In this document: positions 55,776 to 63,843 of the stretch, piece by piece
Numbering within the stretch: position 1 is the first letter of the stretch
How the letters are laid out: every line of letters starts with the position of its first letter
IMG/VR virus record: IMGVR_UViG_3300030616_000017
Location: 32,001-96,000 of that record
Source: a virus
Reading direction: 5' to 3' (one strand)
DNA length: 64,000 nucleotides
Translations under genes and position numbers: made by a program
The notes under the pieces: model-generated
Told to the model about the DNA's origin: nothing
The model's input: the letters and a program-made list of their open reading frames with translations, nothing else
Database searches by the model: none

Positions 55776-56162
55776 ATGGATTGGAGTGAATATCAGGAAG
55801 GTACAACAGCAACAGCCATGTTTAAGAATTCTGTAAAGGATATTATTCTTTTTGATAGAGAGGAAGGACAGAGCAATCAGAGAGTATTGAATTCCTTAGA
55901 GTTAAGTTACATAGGCCTAGGTTTAGGAGAAGTAGGAGAAATTCAGAATAAGCTTAAAAAGATTATTCGTGATGATAAAGGGATTATTAGAGAAGAGGTC
56001 CGCAAGGATTTGTTAAAAGAAGCAGGAGACGCTCTTTATTATCTTACACAATTAGTTGATAAGCTTGGAGGAACATTAGAAGAAACAGCTCAGGATAATC
56101 ATGATAAACTTTTTTCACGAATGGATAGAGGGGTTATTCAGGGTTCTGGTGATAATAGATAA
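55776..56162 (+). CDS. MazG-like NTP pyrophosphohydrolase
   Basis: GE.GE...K.KK, E.GD.LYY, N..KL..R..RG.I.GSGDNR. Confidence 0.88.
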   Translation: MDWSEYQEGTTATAMFKNSVKDIILFDREEGQSNQRVLNSLELSYIGLGLGEVGEIQNKLKKIIRDDKGIIREEVRKDLLKEAGDALYYLTQLVDKLGGTLEETAQDNHDKLFSRMDRGVIQGSGDNR

Positions 56163-56179: not shown

Positions 56180-58486
56180 ATGGTGGAGAAGTTTACGTTC
56201 AAGCAGAACATAAGTGAAGAAATATTTGAACAAAAATATAATCTGTATAATCAAGCAACTGTAGAAGATGTCATGGAGAGCGTTGCTGAAGAAGTGGCTT
56301 TAGCAGAAGAAACAAAAGAAGATGTGGAAAAATGGAAAAGTGTTTTTTATGATGAGTTAATAAGTACGCGATTAATCCCTGCAGGCCGTATTCTTGCGAA
56401 TGCAAGACCTTTTTCCACCATGAAAAATTACAACAATTGTTTTACCATTGATGTAGAAGATAATATGGAGGGAATTTATCAATCCATCTATGAAGATGCT
56501 ATGATAAGTAGAACAGGAGGAGGAGTAGGGTTTGATATTTCTAAATTACGCCCCAAAAATTCTCCTCTTTCTAAGTTACAGGGGGCTGTCAGTTCTGGTC
56601 CTATGTCTTTTCTGCGTATTTTTAACGAAAGTGCTAAAATTATTCAGACAGGGGGTTATAGAAGAAGTGCTCATATAGCCCTTATGGATATTTCTCACCC
56701 AGATATTGAAGAATTCATTACTGCTAAAAGAGGAGATATAAATAAAGAGTTTACTCAGTTTAATATATCTGTAAAAATACCAGACGCTTTTATGAAAGCG
56801 GTAAAAGATGATGCAGATTGGGATTTAGAGTTTGAAGGAACGGTTTATAAAACAGTCAAAGCCCGCCATTTATACAAGCTTCTTTCTGATAACGCTTTTA
56901 TGCACAATGAACCCGGTGTATTTTATTCTGATACCGTTGAAAAGTATAATAACGGCTGGTGGGCATTTAAACTTGATCGTGTTAATCCCTGTGGCGAGAT
57001 CGTAATGCCTCCTTATTCACTCTGTTGTTTGAGCGCGGTTAATTTATCTCAATTTGTAAGAAACCCTTTCGAAAAGGAAGCCGCTTTTGATTACAAAGCT
57101 TATGCGGAAACAGTCCGAGTAGGAATTAGATTTTTAGATAATGTGTTGGAGCGCACAGATTATCCCCTTGAGCGAATTGAAGAGTTTTCAAAGGAATGGA
57201 GAAGAATAGGTTTAGGTATTACAGGCTTAGGAGATGCCTTTGCTATGCTAGGAATAAAGTATGGCAGTAAAGAATCTAAAATACTAGCTGAAGCGATTGC
57301 AGAAACGCATATGGTAGAGTCTTATACTACCAGTGTAGAGCTTGCTAAAGAAAAAGGGCCTTTTTTAGCTTGTGATAAGAAAAAGCTATCTCAAAGCGCC
57401 TTCATTACAAACAGACTTCCTGAAAGCTTGCAGAAGAAAATAGCAAAAGTGGGTTTAAGGAATATCGCTCTTAATACAATTGCACCTACCGGCACCATTT
57501 CTTTTTCTATAGGGCAGAACTGCAGTAGTGGAGTAGAACCCATCTTTTCTCTTCAGTATGATAGAAATATCAGAACAGGAAGAGGGGACGAAACAAGAAC
57601 AGAAACAGTGTATGATTATGCTTGGTTGAAATATATAGAGCATCTAGGAGAAAATCATTTAGAGTTTAATGGAGATGTTCCTGAGTTTTTTAATACGACG
57701 CTAAATATTGATCCTTATGACGCTATTGATATCCAAGCTATTTGGCAAACGTATATTGATCACTCTATCTCCAAAACTCTCAATTTACCCAAAGGAACTA
57801 AAAAAGCAGATTATGATAAACTTTTTGAGTATGCTTACGAAAAAGGTCTTAAAGGGTTTACAACATTTAATCCTGAAGGTTCTATGAAGGGCGTGCTAGA
57901 ATATAACGAAGCGAAAGAAGAGCAGGTAGATGAATTCGGCCGTCCGCTTACTATTAATAGAACTAATGCTCCAAAGCGCCCTAAAGAGCTACAATGTGAT
58001 ATGCATCAAATCGTAGTGAATAAAGAAAAACATTTGGTGTTAATAGGAAGATTAGACGATGGGTCTATTTATGAAGTATTTGTTACTCCTAATACCGACA
58101 ACCAAATTGACATAGGAACATATAAAAAAGGCCTGCTGAGAAAAGTAAAGAAAGGGCATTATCAGTTGGTTGTCGTGAATGGAGAAGAGAAGAAGATTAT
58201 TGAAGATATTGGAAAACAGTTTAATGAACTTTATGGCTCCCTCTCTCGTTTTATATCTATGGGGCTAAGGCATGGAATTGATCTTCAGTTTGTAATTACA
58301 CAGCTTCAAAAAGATACTTCTTTTGCTTCATTTGAAAAAGCTGTCGCAAGAGTGCTTAAAAAATATCTGAGAGAAGGAGAGAAGGTAAAAATCTCAGAGG
58401 CATGCCCCGTGTGTGATTCAACTAATCTCTTTTTCAAAGAAGGCTGTATGACTTGTGCTGATTGTGGGTGGTCAAAATGCAGTTAG
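56180..58486 (+). CDS. nrdJ: Class II (B12-dependent) ribonucleotide reductase
   Basis: PAGRIL, NCF, GGGVG, NPCGE, R.GLG.TG, IAPTGT, C-terminal CP.C...C..CGWSKC; no beta subunit nearby. Confidence 0.92.
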   Translation: MVEKFTFKQNISEEIFEQKYNLYNQATVEDVMESVAEEVALAEETKEDVEKWKSVFYDELISTRLIPAGRILANARPFSTMKNYNNCFTIDVEDNMEGIYQSIYEDAMISRTGGGVGFDISKLRPKNSPLSKLQGAVSSGPMSFLRIFNESAKIIQTGGYRRSAHIALMDISHPDIEEFITAKRGDINKEFTQFNISVKIPDAFMKAVKDDADWDLEFEGTVYKTVKARHLYKLLSDNAFMHNEPGVFYSDTVEKYNNGWWAFKLDRVNPCGEIVMPPYSLCCLSAVNLSQFVRNPFEKEAAFDYKAYAETVRVGIRFLDNVLERTDYPLERIEEFSKEWRRIGLGITGLGDAFAMLGIKYGSKESKILAEAIAETHMVESYTTSVELAKEKGPFLACDKKKLSQSAFITNRLPESLQKKIAKVGLRNIALNTIAPTGTISFSIGQNCSSGVEPIFSLQYDRNIRTGRGDETRTETVYDYAWLKYIEHLGENHLEFNGDVPEFFNTTLNIDPYDAIDIQAIWQTYIDHSISKTLNLPKGTKKADYDKLFEYAYEKGLKGFTTFNPEGSMKGVLEYNEAKEEQVDEFGRPLTINRTNAPKRPKELQCDMHQIVVNKEKHLVLIGRLDDGSIYEVFVTPNTDNQIDIGTYKKGLLRKVKKGHYQLVVVNGEEKKIIEDIGKQFNELYGSLSRFISMGLRHGIDLQFVITQLQKDTSFASFEKAVARVLKKYLREGEKVKISEACPVCDSTNLFFKEGCMTCADCGWSKCS

Positions 58487-58615: not shown

Positions 58616-59827
58616 ATGAAACTTTTCACAGAAACATGGAAACAAAAGATGCAGGATATCATTGTAGGTATTCAGTATCTTTTCGTAGCGGCAGGAGCAA
58701 CAATTCTTGTTCCTCTGTTAACAGGTATTCCTGTATCAGTATGCGTAGTGACAGCTGGTATAGGGACTCTTATTTTTCACTTCATTACGGGTAAGGGAGT
58801 ACCTGTTCTTCTTTCTTCATCGTTTGCATTTATTGCGCCGATTGTGGCTGTAAAAGAACTATATGGTTTGCCTTTTGCATACGGAGGAGTTATTGTAGCT
58901 GGTTTATTGTACTTACTGTTTGCAGCTCTTATCTATTTTGTTGGGTTAGAGTTTATTAAAAAACTATTTCCCACCCCTGTGACAGCAACGATGGTAATTC
59001 TAATCGGTTTAATTTTAGCTCCTGTTGCGATTTCAAGTGCTTCACAAAACTGGATTATTGCTTTGATTACTCTTGCTGCTGGAGCTGCTATTAAAGTTGT
59101 GTGGGATAATAAATTCATTGGCTCATTAGCTATAATTGGAGCAATGGCTGTAGGATATCTTGTTTCAATAGCAGCAGGAATTGTAGATGTAAGCGCTGTT
59201 CAAGCAGCTGCGCTTGTAGGTGTTCCTGAATTTCAATTACCTCAATTTAATGCAAACGCTATTATGATTATTGCTCCGATTGCTATTGTAACATTTCTAG
59301 AACATTTTGCAGATATTTCCGCAGTGAGTAAAGTAGTTGAAAAAGATTTTCTAAAAGATCCTGGTGTACATAAAACATTGATAGGCGATGGTATAGCAAC
59401 AGCAATTGCTGGTTGTTTAGGAGGTTGTCCTAATACCACGTATTCAGAAAATATAGGGGCATTAGAGATTACAGGAGTTAAGAGAGCTAGCGTACTAAGA
59501 ATAACAGCTATAGCTTTAATCGTGGTAGGGTTTCTTCCTAAGATTGCATACCTTATTCATTCTATTCCTGCTCCTGTTGTGGGAGGAATCAGCATTCTTC
59601 TTTTCGGTCTTATCTCAGCAAATGGAGTTAAAAACCTAGTACAAGAACAAATTGATCTCAAAGATCATAAGAACCTCTTTATTATAGCGTCCATGTTAAT
59701 TGTTGGTGCTGGAGGCTCAGTTATTGAAATAGGTTCAGTTACATTTTCCAGCTTAGCTCTTGCAGCTCTTGTAGGTATAGTGATGAACGTAGCGTTCAAT
59801 TGGAAAACTTTTTTCAAAAAAAGTTAA
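58616..59827 (+). CDS. uraA: NCS2/UraA-family nucleobase permease
   Basis: GATILVP, SSFAFI, EH..D, GDG.AT, PNTTYSENIG; many TM helices. Confidence 0.9.
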   Translation: MKLFTETWKQKMQDIIVGIQYLFVAAGATILVPLLTGIPVSVCVVTAGIGTLIFHFITGKGVPVLLSSSFAFIAPIVAVKELYGLPFAYGGVIVAGLLYLLFAALIYFVGLEFIKKLFPTPVTATMVILIGLILAPVAISSASQNWIIALITLAAGAAIKVVWDNKFIGSLAIIGAMAVGYLVSIAAGIVDVSAVQAAALVGVPEFQLPQFNANAIMIIAPIAIVTFLEHFADISAVSKVVEKDFLKDPGVHKTLIGDGIATAIAGCLGGCPNTTYSENIGALEITGVKRASVLRITAIALIVVGFLPKIAYLIHSIPAPVVGGISILLFGLISANGVKNLVQEQIDLKDHKNLFIIASMLIVGAGGSVIEIGSVTFSSLALAALVGIVMNVAFNWKTFFKKS

Positions 59828-59835
59828 GAAAGTAG

Positions 59836-59864
59836 TTGAAAAATCTCTTTCGCTTGGTTATATT
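59836..59864 (+). promoter_or_regulatory. Early/middle promoter TTGAAA-17-TATATT for the RNA cluster
   Basis: Exact spacing, 10 bp before the tmRNA-like 5' end. Confidence 0.8.
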
Positions 59865-59873
59865 ATGAGGAGA

Positions 59874-59978
59874 GGGGGAGAAAATGGATTCGACTGCTAC
59901 ACTGCTGAAGCGACGAAAGGCCCAAAGTAACGAAAGCTGAGGTGTAGCAGGACTCGGGTTCGATGCCCGACTCCTCCA
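59874..59978 (+). ncRNA. Minimal tmRNA-like RNA (tRNA-like domain only, 105 nt)
   Basis: 5' GGGGGAG...GGATTCGAC; acceptor stem with G3:U70 and discriminator A; helix CTGCTACAC/GTGTAGCAG; GGAC-TCGGG-TTCGATG-CCCGA T-arm. Confidence 0.85.
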
Positions 59979-59991
59979 AAATAAAAAATAT

Positions 59992-60081
59992 GGGCAAGTG
60001 GCGAAGCTGGTTGAAACGCATGAGACTTAAAATCTCATACCCAAGCGGTAAACATCGTGGGTTCGATCCCCACCTTGCCTA
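59992..60081 (+). tRNA. tRNA-Leu(UAA)
   Basis: Cloverleaf, TGAGA-CTTAAAA-TCTCA anticodon arm, long variable arm. Confidence 0.93.
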
Positions 60082-60085
60082 ATAT

Positions 60086-60159
60086 GGCACCTTAGCTCAG
60101 CTGGATAGAGCATGAGATTTCTAATCTCAGGGTCACAGGTTCGAATCCTGTAGGTGTCA
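60086..60159 (+). tRNA. tRNA-Arg(UCU)
   Basis: TGAGA-TTTCTAA-TCTCA; GTTCGAATC T-loop. Confidence 0.93.
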
Positions 60160-60171
60160 TACTAATATAAA
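60160..60171 (+). promoter_or_regulatory. Putative late promoter TACTAATATAAA inside the tRNA cluster
   Basis: One-mismatch motif 5 bp before tRNA-Lys. Confidence 0.55.
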
Positions 60172-60175
60172 AAAT

Positions 60176-60248
60176 GGACCGTTAGCTCAGTCGGTAGAGC
60201 AACGCACTTTTAATGCGTAGGTCACAGGATCGTAGCCTGTACGGTTCA
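60176..60248 (+). tRNA. tRNA-Lys(UUU)
   Basis: ACGCA-CTTTTAA-TGCGT; atypical T-loop ATCGTAG. Confidence 0.9.
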
Positions 60249-60252
60249 CTAA

Positions 60253-60324
60253 GGTTTATTCGTATATTGGTTAGTACGCTGGATTGTCGATCCAGAAGGC
60301 GGGGTTCGATTCCCCGATAGACCG
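60253..60324 (+). tRNA. tRNA-Asp(GUC)
   Basis: CTGGA-TTGTCGA-TCCAG; discriminator G. Confidence 0.88.
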
Positions 60325-60325
60325 T

Positions 60326-60361
60326 TTTTGTAAGAAATCTATATAGTTTTTTCTTACAAAA
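60326..60361 (+). repeat. Inverted repeat TTTTGTAAGAAA/TTTCTTACAAAA between tRNA-Asp and tRNA-Glu
   Basis: Perfect 12-bp stem. Confidence 0.6.
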
Positions 60362-60368
60362 TCTCTTT

Positions 60369-60442
60369 GCTCCCTTCGTCTAATCGGTTAGGATATCGCC
60401 CTTTCAAGGCGAAGATATCGGGTTCAAGTCCCGTAGGGAGTA
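60369..60442 (+). tRNA. tRNA-Glu(UUC)
   Basis: TCGCC-CTTTCAA-GGCGA anticodon arm; GTTCAAG T-loop. Confidence 0.9.
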
Positions 60443-60453
60443 AAACATTTTAC

Positions 60454-60482
60454 TTTACTTTTTGGTAGAAAATGATTATATT
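60454..60482 (+). promoter_or_regulatory. Early/middle promoter TTTACT-17-TATATT
   Basis: Predicted +1 near 60489 coincides with the first base of RNA repeat 1. Confidence 0.75.
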
Positions 60483-60488
60483 ATATAT

Positions 60489-60546
60489 GTAGGCAGAGGG
60501 AGTTCCTCTAAAAAACACGGTGAAAGTTTGAATACTCTCCGCCTAC
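60489..60546 (+). ncRNA. Structured RNA repeat unit 1
   Basis: GTAGGC-AGA-GGGAGT-TCCT...T-ACTCTC-C-GCCTAC; 30-nt loop. Confidence 0.75.
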
Positions 60547-60561
60547 TTTATTGAAATTAAT

Positions 60562-60617
60562 ATGGCATAGAGGGTTCCTATACTATCAACTTTAAATTGA
60601 ATTCTACCCTCCGCCAT
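60562..60617 (+). ncRNA. Structured RNA repeat unit 2
   Basis: ATGGC-ATA-GAGGGT-TCCT...T-ACCCTC-C-GCCAT; 30-nt loop. Confidence 0.75.
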
Positions 60618-60633
60618 TTTAATATGAGTAATT

Positions 60634-60723
60634 AAGGGCATAAGAAGTTCCTAATGTAAAGAATTTACAGGGCAACTCCTACGGGAGCAGGGCCCTGTGC
60701 CAACAAACTTACTTCTCGCCCTT
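60634..60723 (+). ncRNA. Structured RNA repeat unit 3
   Basis: AAGGGC-ATA-AGAAGT-TCCT...T-ACTTCT-C-GCCCTT; 62-nt loop containing an ACAGGGC/GCCCTGT stem and a cUACGg tetraloop. Confidence 0.75.
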
Positions 60724-60750
60724 TTATTAACCTACCAAAAGGAGAATCAA

Positions 60751-62694
60751 ATGATTTCCACTCTACGTCTTTTTAATGGTATTATTATTCCCAACAAAGA
60801 AGTTCCTGAAGATACTAATTCAGTAATATGGCCTCATGAAAAGTCTTACGAACAGCTTACTAAAGAAACTCTCAAGAAAGGATACATTGTTGATAAGGCT
60901 ATCTATTTTAATCTTACTCCTGAAGGCTTAAAAGACTTTAACAAGGCTATGAAAGAAAAGCTTACTTTTCATCGAGATTGGAATAATAGCTTTTATAAGT
61001 CTTGGAATAAACTGGAAACTCTTTCAGATTTTGAATTGCGTTTAGACCAGCTTTTTCATTACTTTACTACGTATGGAGCCGAAGCTCTTGGAATAAAAGA
61101 TTCTTTTGTTTACCTCCCTAAAGGCAATACTTTTATGCCCCCTGTAAGTGAAGATTTTTCTTTTCTTTATATTCGTGGATTTGAAAGAGAAGAAATTCAG
61201 GAAAAGATTGTAGCTATGGTTGGTTCTGGAATTGCTCTAAAAGAAGAAACCATTGAAGATCTTCTTACTATTGTTATGGAATTTTCAAAGAAGCACATTT
61301 TCGACATCTTCTCTGTTTGCAAGAACAAGGAAGTGAAGGTTCGATTAGCAGAGTTATATGATTTTATTCCTAAAAATGTAGGAGAATTTCTTAGATACGT
61401 TATTTACAAGAATACAGGGAAGTCTCTTGTTATTAAGAATAAAGCTACAATTGACGCTATAAAGATAGGGAGAGATAGAAAAACTCCTTCTTATTTCTAT
61501 GCGTATAGAGATGCTTATGGGCTTGAAAGTCTTGCTAAAAACTTTTATCGGTATAAGCCTCTTCTTCTTGCTTTTCGGTCTGCATTCCCTGAACTAAAGC
61601 CACTGATTAATCAAGTAAGAAAACTTGCTGTAAAGTTCCATGAACCTATGAAAGAAGATTTTCTTAATACTGTTACCAAAAAAATCAAACAGAATGCTGT
61701 TCTTAATCTCACCACTTTAGAACAAGAACTCTTTAAGGCAAACACCTTTAGAAAAGTACGGTTGCTATATGCTCTTCAGAATCTGGAAAGCCAAACTGAA
61801 GATAAAATCTATAATATTCGGAACGGTAAACAGTATGTAACGAAAGCAAGTATGCCTCGATTTAAAAAAGAGGATGTTGCTTTTTTAGCTGATAAGGTCT
61901 ATTCTCATATTGTTGAAGATATTAAACCAAATGTAGAAGGTAAGACAGTTTTGGTTCATCCAAGACTTGCATATGCTCTTCCTTCTTCAGAAAAGAATTT
62001 TATAGGAAACTACCCTGTCAAGAGTAAGGTAGAATTCAACAGTACAAGAGACCTGATTATTGGTGTTCACTGGAAAAATCAAAAAAATAGAGTAGATCTA
62101 GATCTTTCTCTTCTTAGTCTTGATGGAACCAAGTTTGGATGGAATGGTCGTTATAGGGATGAAGGAATTCTTTTTTCAGGCGATGTGACTGATGCTCCTG
62201 GAGCAGGAGCTTCTGAGTTTTATTATTTCAAAGGTGTTAAAGACGGGATGTATTCAGTAGTTTTGAATTATTACAATTCTTATGGGGTAGAAGAAGAATG
62301 CCCTTTTGATATAATTATTGGGGCTTTTGATGGACAAGATATTAATAGGAATTTTATGTTACGCCCTGAAAATATTGTTTTTCAAGCCTCCTCATCTATC
62401 GGCCCTGAACAGATTAATCTGGGAATGGTGGTTATAGAGGGAGACAAAAAAGTATTTAGTATGATAGAGGGAAAGAGAGCTCGTGCTTCAGTGTCTGCTA
62501 ACGATGAACTCAATGCTGTATATTTGAATGCACTTAAATCTGAAACTGAAAATATTATATTTCTAACAGATGTGCTTACTGATGCTGGAGCTGTAGTAGT
62601 AGAAGATCGAGAAGATTCAGTTATTGATTTTGATCTTACTCCTACCTATATTCAGAAAGATACCATTATGTCAATGTTTACAAAGGAGAGGTAA
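60751..62694 (+). CDS. Large protein with helical N-terminal region and TerD-like C-terminal domain
   Basis: Start moved to MISTL (AAGGAG RBS); GVHW...DLDLS and SGD.TDAP..GASEF in the C-terminal third. Confidence 0.7.
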   Translation: MISTLRLFNGIIIPNKEVPEDTNSVIWPHEKSYEQLTKETLKKGYIVDKAIYFNLTPEGLKDFNKAMKEKLTFHRDWNNSFYKSWNKLETLSDFELRLDQLFHYFTTYGAEALGIKDSFVYLPKGNTFMPPVSEDFSFLYIRGFEREEIQEKIVAMVGSGIALKEETIEDLLTIVMEFSKKHIFDIFSVCKNKEVKVRLAELYDFIPKNVGEFLRYVIYKNTGKSLVIKNKATIDAIKIGRDRKTPSYFYAYRDAYGLESLAKNFYRYKPLLLAFRSAFPELKPLINQVRKLAVKFHEPMKEDFLNTVTKKIKQNAVLNLTTLEQELFKANTFRKVRLLYALQNLESQTEDKIYNIRNGKQYVTKASMPRFKKEDVAFLADKVYSHIVEDIKPNVEGKTVLVHPRLAYALPSSEKNFIGNYPVKSKVEFNSTRDLIIGVHWKNQKNRVDLDLSLLSLDGTKFGWNGRYRDEGILFSGDVTDAPGAGASEFYYFKGVKDGMYSVVLNYYNSYGVEEECPFDIIIGAFDGQDINRNFMLRPENIVFQASSSIGPEQINLGMVVIEGDKKVFSMIEGKRARASVSANDELNAVYLNALKSETENIIFLTDVLTDAGAVVVEDREDSVIDFDLTPTYIQKDTIMSMFTKER

Positions 62695-62695
62695 A

Positions 62696-63808
62696 ATGAG
62701 AGACCTTGCTTATATTGCTAAAATTGAAAAGCTTGAACCCATTAAAGATAAGGATAGAATTGAACTCGCCACAGTAGCTAATTGGGAAGTAATTGTAGGA
62801 AAAGGAGAATATAAGGTTGGAGACCTTGTGGTGTATGTTGAGTATGATACTGTTCTTCCTGTCAAGCCCGAATTCGAGTTTCTAAGAAAAAGATGTTATT
62901 CAAAACTTTATGACGGGTTTAGAATTCGTAATATGTCAATGGCTGGTGTATTTTCTCAAGGAATTGTGTTTCCTCTCTCTATTCTCCCAAAGAGTGTTAA
63001 GATTGAGGAGGGAAGAAATGTTGCTAAAGAACTAGAAATTGTTCGATATGATCCAGAAGAGATACGAGAAAATAGAATGATTCATAATTCCAAGCCTAAA
63101 AATCCTCTTATGAGATTTAAGTGGTTTAGAAAACTTCGGAATAAATATTTTGGTAAAACTTCCTCTTATCCTTCTACAGTAAAGAAATCTGATGAAACAA
63201 ATATTCAGAAGCTTTTCAACGCGTACAAAGAAAATTATAATGATGTGAAGTTTTATGCTACGGAAAAAGTAGAAGGACAAGCAGCAACCTATGTGCTTAA
63301 ACGAGGTCGCTTTCACGTTTACTCCCACAATAAGAGTGTGCGGAACGATGGAAAAAACAATTGGTCAGCAACTGCTAAACTGTATGACATTGAAAAGAAG
63401 CTGCGTCAGTATAAAAGAAAACACGGAGTAGAGCTTGCAATCCAAGGAGAAATTGCGGGGCCGGGAATTCAAAAGAATATCTATGGGTTTGATACATTTA
63501 GATTTTTCGTATATAAAATCACTAATGTGAAAACAGGTGAAGCGTACAACTTCGTGGATTTAGTTAATCTTATTGTAAAGTTAGATCTATTTCTTTGTCC
63601 TCTTGTTTATACATCTATATATCTTAATGCGTTTGAAACCGTACAGGAAATTCTTGAGCATAGTAATGGAGATAGTGTATTAAGAAAGGATAAGAAGATT
63701 CCAAGAGAAGGGCTTGTATGGAGAGCTGTAGAAGATCAAAATATAGGGTTTAAAGCTAAGAGTCCGGTATACCTTGCAGCTTGGGATAAAAAAGATAAAA
63801 CTGAATAA
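62696..63808 (+). CDS. ATP-dependent RNA ligase (DRB0094/Rnl2-like with N-terminal OB domain)
   Basis: I...DRIE.A.V..W..., SQG, DE.NIQ, motif I TEKVEG, QGE..GPGIQKN.Y, REG.V, FKA.S..YL. Confidence 0.9.
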   Translation: MRDLAYIAKIEKLEPIKDKDRIELATVANWEVIVGKGEYKVGDLVVYVEYDTVLPVKPEFEFLRKRCYSKLYDGFRIRNMSMAGVFSQGIVFPLSILPKSVKIEEGRNVAKELEIVRYDPEEIRENRMIHNSKPKNPLMRFKWFRKLRNKYFGKTSSYPSTVKKSDETNIQKLFNAYKENYNDVKFYATEKVEGQAATYVLKRGRFHVYSHNKSVRNDGKNNWSATAKLYDIEKKLRQYKRKHGVELAIQGEIAGPGIQKNIYGFDTFRFFVYKITNVKTGEAYNFVDLVNLIVKLDLFLCPLVYTSIYLNAFETVQEILEHSNGDSVLRKDKKIPREGLVWRAVEDQNIGFKAKSPVYLAAWDKKDKTE

Positions 63809-63814
63809 AATTAC

Positions 63815-63843
63815 TTGATTTTTTTCAAATTAGCTGTTATATT
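63815..63843 (+). promoter_or_regulatory. Early/middle promoter TTGATT-17-TATATT
   Basis: Exact spacing. Confidence 0.7.

What the first reader, a model, noticed from the sequence alone, without database searches (positions are those of the whole stretch)
60454..63808. Candidate new RNP system: three covarying stem RNAs co-transcribed with a TerD-like protein and an RNA ligase
Seen: one promoter has its predicted +1 at the first G of an array of three elements with the same architecture: outer stem (GUAGGC/GCCUAC, AUGGC/GCCAU, AAGGGC/GCCCUU), an asymmetric A(U/G)A x C internal loop, a 6-bp inner stem (GGGAGU/ACUCUC, GAGGGU/ACCCUC, AGAAGU/ACUUCU), an invariant UCCU and a variable loop (30, 30 and 62 nt). 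Stem sequences differ between copies but pairing is kept, which is compensatory covariation. AT-rich spacers separate the units. The array leads directly into a 647-aa helical+TerD-like protein and then an RNA ligase 1 bp downstream. Known: Ro60/Rsr binds Y RNAs at a bulged helix formed by their 5' and 3' ends, and is encoded with RtcB ligase in RNA-repair operons. Inference: this is an analogous but different module in which the protein binds the bulged stem and the variable loops act as adaptors, decoys or guides, possibly to repair tRNAs cut by host defences. An autoregulatory multi-site leader is the alternative.
Basis: partly seen in the sequence, partly recalled or inferred. Interest (0 to 1): 0.92.

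Follow-up and report, generated by a model that had tools for sequence, protein, structure and literature searches.

The report
Y-RNA-like handle RNAs with TerD partner
Three small folded RNAs that share one conserved "handle" sit in front of an uncharacterised phage protein. The same RNA-protein pair recurs in over a hundred phage and bacterial loci, often among tRNA or RNA-repair genes, so it looks like an undescribed counterpart of the Ro60/Y-RNA particle.

Summary
Three hairpin RNAs lie at 60488-60547, 60560-60619 and 60633-60724. Each has an outer stem, an A-N-A bulge opposite a single C, a 6-bp inner stem, UCCU and a variable top. They sit between a tRNA cluster and a 647-aa gene.

A covariance model of this "handle" finds 211 units in 80 phage loci and 51 in 39 bacterial or archaeal loci. 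All are on the gene's strand and nearly all lie just upstream, in 110 of 114 testable loci. Pairing covaries strongly in a set not used to build the model. No Rfam family matches.

The protein has a helical domain plus a TerD-fold domain. It has no Pfam family and no detectable TROVE/Ro60 homology, and the family holds about 1,200 clusters at 50% identity.

The variable tops imitate tRNA parts: anticodon-type loops, D-loop-like GG loops, T arms, or a whole permuted tRNA-like domain as in YrlA. Two loci hold tRNAs whose anticodon loop is replaced by the handle.

RNA ligases (three kinds), CCA-adding-type enzymes and RlaP are occasional neighbours, not core parts.

Best reading: a new Ro60/Y-RNA-like particle acting on tRNA or in RNA repair. 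Binding is inferred, not shown.

This scan reached the same reading on other genomes; I tested it independently here.

The parts
60454..60482 (+). Promoter-like site TTTACT-17-TATATT. It would start transcription at about G60489, the first base of unit 1.
   Evidence: Consensus scan, 9 of 12 matches. Sites with the same -10 hexamer TATATT precede the mini-tmRNA (59836-59864) and the gene after the ligase (63815-63843). This is a consensus match only, not evidence of function.
60488..60547 (+). Handle RNA unit 1. Outer stem 60489-94/60541-46, bulge AGA opposite C60540, inner stem 60498-503/60534-39, UCCU 60504-07. The 30-nt top contains a GGUGAAA stretch.
   Evidence: Model R1 53.2 bits, E 4e-12. 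Fold z -2.59. Sequence.
60560..60619 (+). Handle RNA unit 2. Outer stem 60562-66/60613-17, bulge AUA opposite C60612, inner stem 60570-75/60606-11. The top holds an anticodon-arm-like hairpin, UCAA-CUUUAAA-UUGA.
   Evidence: Model R1 57.6 bits, E 2e-13. Fold z -2.59. Loops of the form C-U-NNN-A-A are enriched across the family.
60633..60724 (+). Handle RNA unit 3. Outer stem 60634-39/60718-23, bulge AUA opposite C60717, inner stem 60643-48/60711-16. The 62-nt top is a G+C-rich extended hairpin capped by a UACG loop.
   Evidence: Model R1 43.0 bits, E 4e-9. Fold -33 kcal/mol, z -3.65.
60751..62694 (+). 647-aa partner protein. It has an N-terminal alpha/beta region with a conserved HYxTTYG motif, a helical-repeat domain (about 140-400) and a TerD-fold beta-sandwich (about 428-595).
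   Evidence: No Pfam or PDB sequence match. AlphaFold2 model pLDDT 77. TerD fold Z 9.9 (2qz7) and 9.5 (2kxt). The family holds 1,176 clusters at E<=1e-30. The start codon is set by alignment to homologues.
62696..63808 (+). ATP-dependent RNA ligase of the DraRnl/Rnl5 type, with an N-terminal OB domain. It is an accessory neighbour, not a conserved part of the module.
   Evidence: PF21189 9e-28 and PF09414 2e-16. TIGR02306 151.4 bits against a cut-off of 151.15. phrog_968 9e-63. No homologue lies next to the gene in the other 119 loci.
59991..60443 (+). Context: a cluster of five tRNA genes (Leu-UAA, Arg-UCU, Lys-UUU, Asp-GUC, Glu-UUC) directly upstream on the same strand.
   Evidence: ARAGORN. 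Rfam tRNA 57-69 bits.

Best explanation
The three units are genes for small non-coding RNAs of a large, uncatalogued family built as "handle plus cargo".

The handle has four conserved features:
- an outer stem ending in GGC/GCC;
- an A-N-A bulge opposite one C;
- a 6-bp inner stem closed by GU/AC;
- UCCU.

I infer that the handle is the docking site for the 647-aa helical+TerD protein encoded directly downstream, so that RNA and protein form a particle.

The cargo on top of the handle varies from unit to unit and imitates tRNA or parts of it. I infer that it links the protein to tRNA-handling factors, or acts as bait for them. Candidates are nucleases, repair ligases, and modification or processing enzymes. 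This would parallel the way Y RNAs couple Ro60 to partner enzymes.

In this phage the array is probably transcribed with the gene and the ligase, from a promoter just after the tRNA cluster, and then trimmed to single hairpins. The last unit abuts the ribosome-binding site, so the protein may also limit its own translation.

Shown here: the RNA family, its structure and covariation, its near-obligate linkage to the protein gene, the tRNA-like cargos, the protein's fold, and the occasional RNA-repair and tRNA neighbours.

Inferred: binding, processing, and the role in tRNA surveillance, repair or counter-defence.
For: 1. Linkage. Model R1 finds 211 units in 80 viral loci, 51 in 39 genome loci and 11 in three named phages, S-CRM01, S-CBWM1 and Phass-1, whose proteins are only 27-28% identical. 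Every hit is on the gene's strand. In total, 110 of 114 loci with upstream DNA have at least one unit. Some loci lie on multi-megabase chromosomes next to housekeeping genes such as secA.

2. RNA structure. In the seed alignment the outer stem was not constrained beyond its innermost two pairs, yet the next three pairs form in 43/43, 42/43 and 35/43 sequences, with up to 6 pair types. In an independent set of 59 units, 91.8% of cells pair. There, 11 of 12 pairs change on both sides, and the covariation score is 0.541 against 0.198 for shuffles and at most 0.21 for slid registers. G-U pairs and the single strand orientation point to RNA rather than DNA.

3. Cargo mimics tRNA.
- 39 of 124 short cargos hold a hairpin with a 7-nt Y-U-NNN-R loop, against 8.0 +/- 2.7 in shuffles. 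21 have C-U-NNN-A-A, against 0.84.
- Among real hairpins, 7-nt loops are the commonest, and 36 of 128 fit the anticodon-loop rule (binomial p 1e-10).
- WUGG loops occur in 35 cargos, against 8.2 in shuffles.
- 18 of 32 long cargos carry a T-arm motif, and many have the order T arm, capped acceptor, D arm.
- The L035 unit scores 42.4 bits against Rfam YrlA through that tRNA-like core only.
- In L026 and L071, tRNAs scoring 57 and 46 bits have the anticodon loop replaced by a circularly permuted handle. This shows the handle is a portable module.

4. Context. The gene sits inside tRNA clusters in this window, in S-CRM01, in S-CBWM1 and in at least 10 metagenomic loci. Neighbours include Rnl1-type ligase (6 loci), RtcB (4), CCA-adding/poly(A)-polymerase-type enzyme (5), RlaP (4) and the Rnl5-type ligase here.

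5. Conserved geometry. The last unit ends a median of 22 nt before the start codon in 51 loci.
Against: - No experiment or structure shows that the protein binds the RNA. Neither the TerD fold nor the helical domain is an established RNA-binding module.
- RNA-repair neighbours occur in only 16 of 120 loci, and no background rate was computed.
- The three units of this window do not carry full tRNA-like domains. Only unit 2 has an anticodon-type loop.
- Many loci come from related phages, so counts are not independent events.
- The position immediately 5' of the gene also fits a purely cis-acting leader.
Confidence: 0.6

Rival explanations
1. The units are only a cis-regulatory leader. The hairpins are repeated operator or sensor sites in the 5' UTR that control translation or stability of the downstream mRNA, through the protein itself or a ligand. 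They have no life as separate RNAs.
For: Almost all units lie just upstream on the same strand. The last unit ends a median of 22 nt before the start codon, directly before the Shine-Dalgarno sequence. No terminator-like site separates the array from the gene in the window.
Against: - Units also lie downstream of the gene (S-CRM01 L084 4827-4882; L013, L023, L050, L051, L072) or about 1.3 kb away (Phass-1, six units).
- Arrays hold 1 to 8 units, with cargos that are tRNA-like domains.
- In L026 and L071 the handle is embedded in a tRNA that would be released by tRNA processing.

A feedback role may still coexist with a trans-acting role.
Confidence: 0.12
2. The protein is an enzyme or processing factor that acts only transiently on these RNAs, by cutting, modifying, ligating or charging them. 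The RNAs then work alone, for example as decoys for host anticodon nucleases. There would be no stable particle.
For: Many invariant polar and charged residues lie outside the TerD domain, including HYxTTYG, H297/D303/N306 and R357-N-G-K360. Anticodon-type loops would suit decoys. Ligases and nucleotidyltransferases are occasional neighbours.
Against: No catalytic fold was recognised by Pfam, PDB sequence search, Foldseek or VIA-align. A portable handle that keeps its sequence while the cargo changes is what a binding tag looks like.
Confidence: 0.15
3. The array is a repeat-encoded antitoxin or guide array. This would be like type III toxin-antitoxin RNA repeats or a CRISPR/TIGR-type guide array: the protein processes it, and it inhibits the protein or directs it to targets through the variable loops.
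For: A tandem array of structured units sits directly upstream of a protein gene. The middle parts are variable.
Against: - The units are not near-identical direct repeats. Their stems differ and covary.
- Many chromosomal loci have a single unit.
- The variable parts are structured tRNA mimics, not free spacers.
- No nuclease fold was found.
Confidence: 0.04
4. The handle is an intron-like or mobile insertion, or a processing signal, that happens to travel with the gene. The protein plus a ligase would excise and reseal it.
For: Two tRNAs carry the handle at the anticodon-loop position. RNA ligases are sometimes adjacent.
Against: Removing the handle from the L026 tRNA would not leave a 7-nt anticodon loop, because the 46-nt insert replaces the whole loop. 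More than 95% of units stand free, with no tRNA exons around them.
Confidence: 0.03

Closest known systems
Ro60 (Rsr) with Y RNAs, especially bacterial and phage YrlA (Rfam RF02553; Chen et al. 2014, PMC4201824), as in the Salmonella rsr-yrlBA-rtcBA RNA-repair operon
   Same: - Small RNAs are encoded next to one protein gene, often in several copies.
- The build is modular: a closing bulged stem formed by the 5' and 3' ends, plus a variable module.
- In some members that module is a tRNA-like domain in the permuted order T arm, capped acceptor stem, D arm.
- The system occurs in both bacteria and phages.
- RtcB and other RNA-repair genes are occasional neighbours.
- The protein has a helical-repeat domain followed by a separate C-terminal domain of a family known to bind metal ions.
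   Different: - The handle sequence (GGC-ANA-NNNNGU-UCCU ... AC-NNNN-C-GCC) is not the GNCGAAN0-1G Ro60 motif described in PMC4201824.
- The window units give no YrlA hit, and the best relative reaches 42 bits against a threshold of 69.
- The protein has no TROVE or vWA match. A profile-profile comparison with a Ro60 alignment gives probability 0.4%.
- The protein carries a TerD fold where Ro60 has vWA.
- Most cargos are mini-hairpins rather than full tRNA-like domains.
- 12 of 15 host genomes and this phage have no TROVE gene at all.
TerD-domain proteins of the tellurite-resistance (Ter) stress system (PF02342; structures 2qz7, 2kxt, 3ibz)
   Same: The C-terminal domain (about 428-595) has the TerD beta-sandwich fold (Z 9.9 and 9.5; Foldseek probability 1.0 to 3ibz). 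It keeps DLDLS and GD...E motifs that resemble, from my own knowledge, the calcium-binding residues of TerD.
   Different: There is no Pfam TerD hit at sequence level. The domain is fused to a 420-residue N-terminal region absent from Ter proteins. There are no Ter-operon neighbours. Ter proteins are not known to have an RNA partner.
MXAN_6230/SCO0854 family RING-domain proteins (NCBIfam NF041916; Prok-RING_4)
   Same: The ESM Atlas model of this protein aligns over 552 residues with that family's cluster (TM 0.64 by the query). There is also a weak NCBIfam hit on the TerD region (E 9e-4). The helical+TerD body therefore seems to be shared.
   Different: Those proteins are about 850-1000 aa, carry a RING finger, are confined mostly to Actinomycetota, and are themselves uncharacterised. 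I did not test whether they have a handle RNA.
Type III toxin-antitoxin RNA arrays (ToxI/ToxN type)
   Same: A tandem array of short structured RNA units lies directly upstream of, and is probably co-transcribed with, a protein gene.
   Different: The units are not identical repeats, the cargos differ, single-unit loci are common, and the protein has no ToxN-like endoribonuclease fold.

Membership tests
Rfam YrlA (RF02553) Y RNA-like | Reaches the family's gathering score (69 bits) | tested here: not met
   The window units gave no hit, even at E<=10. The best relative, L035 2772-2875, scores 42.4 bits.
Rfam YrlA (RF02553) Y RNA-like | Ro60-binding motif GNCGAAN0-1G on the 5' strand of the closing stem (PMC4201824) | tested here: not met
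   The 5' strand of the handle reads (N)GGC-A(U/A/C)A-NNNNGU-UCCU. In the L035 alignment to YrlA, the stem columns are mismatched or gapped.
Rfam YrlA (RF02553) Y RNA-like | tRNA-like domain in the order T arm, capped acceptor stem, D arm, on top of the closing stem | tested here: inconclusive
   Present in a subset of family members: 18 of 32 long cargos have a T-arm motif, and L035 folds this way. Absent from the three units of this window.
Rfam YrlA (RF02553) Y RNA-like | Encoded beside a TROVE (Ro60) gene | tested here: not met
   There is no TROVE match in the 147-kb phage. Only 3 of 15 host genomes have one. It is adjacent only in L104.
Ro60 / TROVE proteins (PF05731 + PF25045) | Sequence match to the TROVE and Ro60-vWA profiles | tested here: not met
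   None of 21 family members hits either profile at E<=5. hhalign of family profile A1 against Ro60 profile A6 gives probability 0.4%. The PDB profile search found nothing at E<=1.
Ro60 / TROVE proteins (PF05731 + PF25045) | HEAT-repeat ring fold of the N-terminal domain | tested here: inconclusive
   Phage phiLo Ro60 (9l5y_B) aligns over 213 residues (148-406), the longest alignment in the list. However, Z is only 5.9 and rmsd 5.8 A, which is within the noise for helical repeats.
TerD domain (PF02342) | TerD beta-sandwich fold | tested here: met
   VIA-align Z 9.9 (2qz7_B, 146 aligned residues, rmsd 3.5) and 9.5 (2kxt). Foldseek probability 1.0 to 3ibz.
TerD domain (PF02342) | Pfam profile match above threshold | tested here: not met
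   No PF02342 hit in any of the 21 members at E<=5.
DraRnl/Rnl5-type RNA ligase (TIGR02306), for ORF 62696-63808 | Equivalog score above the cut-off, with an N-terminal OB domain and a nucleotidyltransferase domain | tested here: met
   TIGR02306 151.4 bits against a cut-off of 151.15. PF21189 97 bits and PF09414 61 bits.
Type III toxin-antitoxin RNA array | Near-identical direct repeats and an endoribonuclease toxin | tested here: not met
   Mean column identity across the alignment of the three units is 61%, and their stems differ. No nuclease fold was recognised.

The most novel reading that the evidence does not exclude
This is a second, evolutionarily independent class of Y-RNA-like particle. 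A helical+TerD protein docks on a portable RNA handle. The handle's exchangeable cargos are anticodon-arm, D-arm or T-arm mimics, or whole tRNA bodies. These cargos let phages and bacteria bait, sense or repair attacks on specific tRNAs, for example by soaking up or reporting host anticodon nucleases. If so, the "anticodons" displayed by the cargos would record which tRNAs are under attack.
Probability: 0.3. Interest if true: 0.92.

Novelty: new variant of a known kind. Interest (0 to 1): 0.82.

Why it matters
Ro60 with its Y RNAs is the only established particle of this design that I know of: a protein paired with modular small RNAs that mimic tRNA. Its role in bacteria is still only partly understood.

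This would be a second system with the same design but unrelated parts. The handle has no Rfam family. The protein has no Pfam family and forms about 1,200 clusters at 50% identity. It occurs in large phages, often inside their tRNA gene clusters, and on bacterial chromosomes.

If the particle is real, three things follow:
- It shows that coupling a protein to tRNA look-alikes arose more than once.
- It gives the TerD fold a first link to RNA.
- It offers a way into how phages protect or monitor their tRNA supply against host tRNA-cutting defences.

It also corrects annotation. Hypothetical ORFs drawn over these RNAs in the S-CRM01 and Phass-1 records are probably not genes.

Cultured systems exist for testing: Synechococcus phages S-CRM01 and S-CBWM1, Ktedonobacter racemifer DSM 44963 and Geminocystis sp. 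CENA526.

Tried and rejected
- **Rfam.** No family matches the units. I ran permissive searches of the window region and of L026, L071 and L035, plus a gathering-threshold search of 10 loci. Only tRNA, a mini-tmRNA and a sub-threshold YrlA hit on one tRNA-like cargo appeared.
- **Named phages.** A nucleotide search of the phage collection found only the tRNAs. A protein search found three named phages, all annotated as hypothetical.
- **Conserved protein neighbours.** Clustering ORFs from 120 loci gave none beyond the gene itself. The larger clusters were antisense ORF artefacts inside the gene.
- **Homology to Ro60.** Pfam, a PDB sequence profile search and hhalign were all negative. Whole-model fold searches listed no Ro60 entry. 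The N-terminal domain alone gave only a weak, long alignment to phage phiLo Ro60.
- **Collecting more TROVE genes.** I sampled 121 genomes of the Bythopirellula phylum. Only one match passed E<=1e-10, so I used a protein-database search instead.
- **Homology among large downstream genes.** In chromosomal loci these genes showed no detectable relationship to each other or to Ro60.
- **Literature.** Five searches found no description of this RNA or protein. Subscription journals are not covered.
- **Readings rejected.** A DNA-level repeat or operator is unlikely because of G-U pairs and the strict strand bias. A terminator is unlikely because the 3' flanks are not consistently U-rich. A T-loop or K-turn identity for the handle fails on the consensus positions, by my own reading.
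- **Not run.** I sent no protein-complex prediction, because I do not claim that the protein binds the ligase.

Full report
**What is in the window**

The window is part of a 147-kb viral record. On the + strand it holds, in order:

- a 108-nt mini tmRNA-like gene at 59874-59981 (Rfam tmRNA 59.9 bits);
- five tRNA genes at 59991-60443;
- a 44-nt spacer with a promoter-like site at 60454-60482;
- three hairpin units at 60488-60547, 60560-60619 and 60633-60724;
- a Shine-Dalgarno sequence and a 647-aa ORF at 60751-62694;
- an RNA ligase gene at 62696-63808, starting one base after the stop codon.

Each has an outer stem of 5-6 bp ending in GGC/GCC and a three-base bulge (AGA, AUA, AUA) opposite a single C. 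Each also has a 6-bp inner stem closed by GU/AC, an invariant UCCU, and tops of 30, 30 and 62 nt. Each unit folds better than its shuffles (z -2.6 to -3.7). The 15-nt core pattern occurs three times in the whole phage, all here.

**Is it more than chance? Comparative test**

The 647-aa protein has more than 1,100 relatives of uniform length (about 630 aa) in the 90%-identity protein collection, none with a Pfam domain. An exhaustive profile search finds 1,176 clusters at 50% identity with E<=1e-30.

I fetched three sets of loci:
- 80 viral loci;
- 39 loci from bacterial and archaeal assemblies;
- three named phages: Synechococcus phages S-CRM01 and S-CBWM1, and gut phage Phass-1, whose proteins are 27-28% identical to this one.

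A covariance model (R1) was built from 43 units. Its hits were:
- 211 in the viral loci;
- 51 in the genome loci;
- 11 in the named phages.

Every hit lies on the strand of the gene, and nearly all lie within about 600 nt upstream. Of the loci that include upstream DNA, 75 of 76 viral and 35 of 38 genomic loci have at least one unit. Two of the three genomic exceptions have weak candidates in the expected place. Arrays hold one to eight units.

Several loci lie on chromosomes of 4-10 Mb, for example in Bythopirellula, Limisphaerales and Desulfobacterales, and others in cyanobacteria and in the isolate Ktedonobacter racemifer DSM 44963. Some sit next to housekeeping genes such as secA and a phosphoglycerate mutase. 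The pair is therefore not confined to phages.

**RNA structure**

My seed selection forced the inner stem to pair, so the outer stem is the fair test in that alignment. Beyond the two invariant pairs, the next three pairs form in 43/43, 42/43 and 35/43 sequences, with up to six pair types.

The cleaner test uses 59 units from genome loci and named phages, none of which was used to build the model:
- 91.8% of cells form standard pairs (shuffles 74.2%).
- 11 of 12 pairs change on both sides.
- The covariation score is 0.541, against 0.198 for shuffles and at most 0.21 for registers slid by 1-3 columns.

That alignment was fitted to the model, which favours the structure somewhat, but the margin is large. 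G-U pairs and the absolute strand bias argue for a transcript, not a DNA site.

Sequence conservation is concentrated around the asymmetric bulge and the junction: GGC, A-N-A, GU, UCCU, AC, C, GCC. The helices between them covary freely. That is the pattern expected of a protein-binding or tertiary-contact module.

**Not a catalogued RNA**

Rfam 15 gives no hit on the window units, even at E<=10 with permissive filters. It also gives no hit on short units elsewhere. Five literature searches found no description. The library lacks most subscription journals, so this absence is not proof.

**The cargo imitates tRNA**

This is the main thing the comparative data add.

- *Anticodon-type loops.* Among 124 distinct short tops, 39 contain a hairpin of at least 3 bp with a 7-nt loop of the form Y-U-NNN-R-N. 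Composition-matched shuffles give 8.0 +/- 2.7 (maximum 18). 21 have the stricter C-U-NNN-A-A, against 0.84 (maximum 5). Unit 2 of this window is one of them (UCAA-CUUUAAA-UUGA).
- *Loop size.* Among hairpins actually present, 7-nt loops are the commonest size (128, against 57-76 for 5, 6, 8 or 9 nt). 36 of those 128 fit the anticodon-loop rule, where base composition predicts 8.6% (binomial p 1e-10).
- *D-loop-like loops.* Another class has loops with WUGG, reminiscent of a D loop (35 tops against 8.2 in shuffles).
- *Long tops.* Of 32 long tops, 18 carry a T-arm motif (GUUC[AG]A). Many have the order T arm, capped acceptor-like hairpin, D arm. That is the order produced when a tRNA is opened at the anticodon loop, and it is the architecture of bacterial YrlA Y RNAs (PMC4201824). 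One such unit (L035 2772-2875) scores 42.4 bits against Rfam YrlA, below the 69-bit threshold. The match runs through the tRNA-like core, while the YrlA stem columns do not align.
- *Other topologies.* In L071 2620-2743 a whole cloverleaf (57 bits) is the cargo. In L026 2802-2912 and L071 2493-2609, an otherwise normal tRNA (57 and 46 bits) has its anticodon loop replaced by a circularly permuted handle whose outer stem is capped by a short loop.

The handle is thus a portable module attached to tRNA bodies in three different ways. That is hard to reconcile with a riboswitch, a terminator or an intron. Removing the handle from the L026 tRNA would not leave an anticodon loop.

**The protein**

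Two AlphaFold2 models were made: full length (pLDDT 77) and residues 1-425 (pLDDT 78). They show three parts:
- an N-terminal alpha/beta region holding the invariant HYxTTYG motif, which is poorly modelled;
- a helical-repeat domain (about 140-400);
- a beta-sandwich (about 428-595).

The sandwich has the TerD fold: Z 9.9 to 2qz7, Z 9.5 to 2kxt, and Foldseek probability 1.0 to 3ibz.

The helical domain matches nothing convincingly. The longest alignment, 213 residues, is to Ro60 of Thermus phage phiLo. At Z 5.9 and rmsd 5.8 A this lies within the noise for helical repeats. A profile-profile comparison with a Ro60 alignment is negative (probability 0.4%), though that alignment was shallow (75-100% identical to its query), which limits sensitivity. 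I therefore do not file the protein under TROVE/Ro60.

The ESM Atlas links the whole body structurally (TM 0.64 over 552 residues) to the uncharacterised MXAN_6230/SCO0854 RING-domain family.

**Neighbours**

No protein gene is consistently adjacent. The RNA and the gene form a self-contained pair. The neighbours that do recur point in one direction:
- tRNA clusters around the gene, in this window, in S-CRM01, in S-CBWM1 and in at least 10 metagenomic loci;
- Rnl1-type RNA ligase directly downstream in 6 loci;
- RtcB in 4 loci;
- a CCA-adding/poly(A)-polymerase-type enzyme in 5 loci;
- the RNA-repair nucleotidyltransferase RlaP in 4 loci;
- the DraRnl/Rnl5-type ligase here.

That makes 16 of 120 loci. 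The association is suggestive, but I could not compute a background rate. The ligase in this window is an accessory, not a core part.

Ro60 itself is absent from this phage and from 12 of 15 host genomes tested. In one Bythopirellula chromosome, however, a true Ro60 gene lies 1.8 kb from the TerD-type gene.

**How it most likely works**

- *Shown:* a structured RNA family tied to one protein family across phages and bacteria, with a constant handle and tRNA-mimicking cargos.
- *Inferred, about 0.7:* the protein docks on the handle to form a particle.
- *Inferred, about 0.5:* the cargo couples the particle to enzymes that recognise tRNA, serving tRNA surveillance, repair, or counter-defence against tRNA-cutting host systems.

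The design parallels Ro60/Y RNA, in which the Y RNA stem binds Ro60 and the other module recruits a partner. The example given in PMC4201824 is Y RNA tethering Ro60 to PNPase in Deinococcus.

The last unit ends a median of 22 nt before the start codon, directly before the Shine-Dalgarno sequence, in 51 loci. So the protein may also repress its own translation. The cis-regulatory reading is a likely second role rather than a full alternative, because units also occur downstream of the gene, 1.3 kb away, and inside tRNAs.

**Novelty and verdict**

The design is known: a modular small RNA that includes a tRNA mimic, paired with a dedicated protein. The parts are not: the handle has no Rfam family and the protein has no Pfam family and no detectable Ro60 homology. 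I rate it a new variant of a known kind, with a real chance of being an independent invention with its own function.

Earlier notes of this scan describe the same RNA-protein pair in at least seven other genomes, with the same reading. I treated them as leads, not evidence.

Noticed in passing
window 59874-59981 (+): A mini tmRNA-like gene heads the tRNA cluster. Rfam tmRNA scores 59.9 bits (threshold 47). The tRNA-like ends and helix 2 are intact, but only 22 nt stand where the model has 288 positions for the pseudoknots and tag reading frame. A TTGAAA-17-TATATT promoter-like site lies just upstream (59836-59864).
   Followed up: partly
window 58616-59827 (+): A 403-aa xanthine/uracil permease family gene (PF00860, E 2e-75) is in a phage genome, just before the RNA cluster. 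This is an unusual auxiliary gene for a phage. Upstream lie a ribonucleotide reductase with a TSCPD domain (56180-58486) and a MazG-like pyrophosphatase (55776-56162).
   Followed up: no
L104 7684-9333 (-), Bythopirellula chromosome: A true Ro60 homologue (TROVE plus Ro60 vWA) lies 1.8 kb downstream of the helical+TerD gene, separated by a PcfJ-like gene. TROVE is rare in that phylum (1 of 121 sampled genomes at E<=1e-10). The two systems may therefore be functionally linked in some organisms, rather than simple substitutes.
   Followed up: partly
L026 2802-2912 and L071 2493-2609: These are tRNA genes (57 and 46 bits) in which the 7-nt anticodon loop is replaced by a 46-54-nt insert. The insert is a circularly permuted copy of the handle, with its outer stem capped by a short loop. 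Such chimeras would have tRNA ends and could be processed like tRNAs.
   Followed up: partly
L084 2791-2937 (S-CRM01 g173c) and L086 5995-6294 (Phass-1 WIC39680.1): These annotated hypothetical ORFs lie over handle RNA units: two units in S-CRM01, on the opposite strand, and part of a six-unit array in Phass-1. They are probably annotation errors.
   Followed up: no
protein 60751-62694, whole length: The ESM Atlas model of the protein aligns over 552 residues (TM 0.64) with the MXAN_6230/SCO0854 RING-domain family of Actinomycetota. The helical+TerD body may therefore be an older module that also serves in a ubiquitin-ligase-like context. I did not test whether those genes have a handle RNA nearby.
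   Followed up: no
51 loci, including window 60724-60751: The 3' end of the last RNA unit lies a median of 22 nt (mostly 12-35 nt) before the start codon, immediately before the Shine-Dalgarno sequence. This conserved spacing would allow translational feedback by a handle-bound protein.
   Followed up: partly
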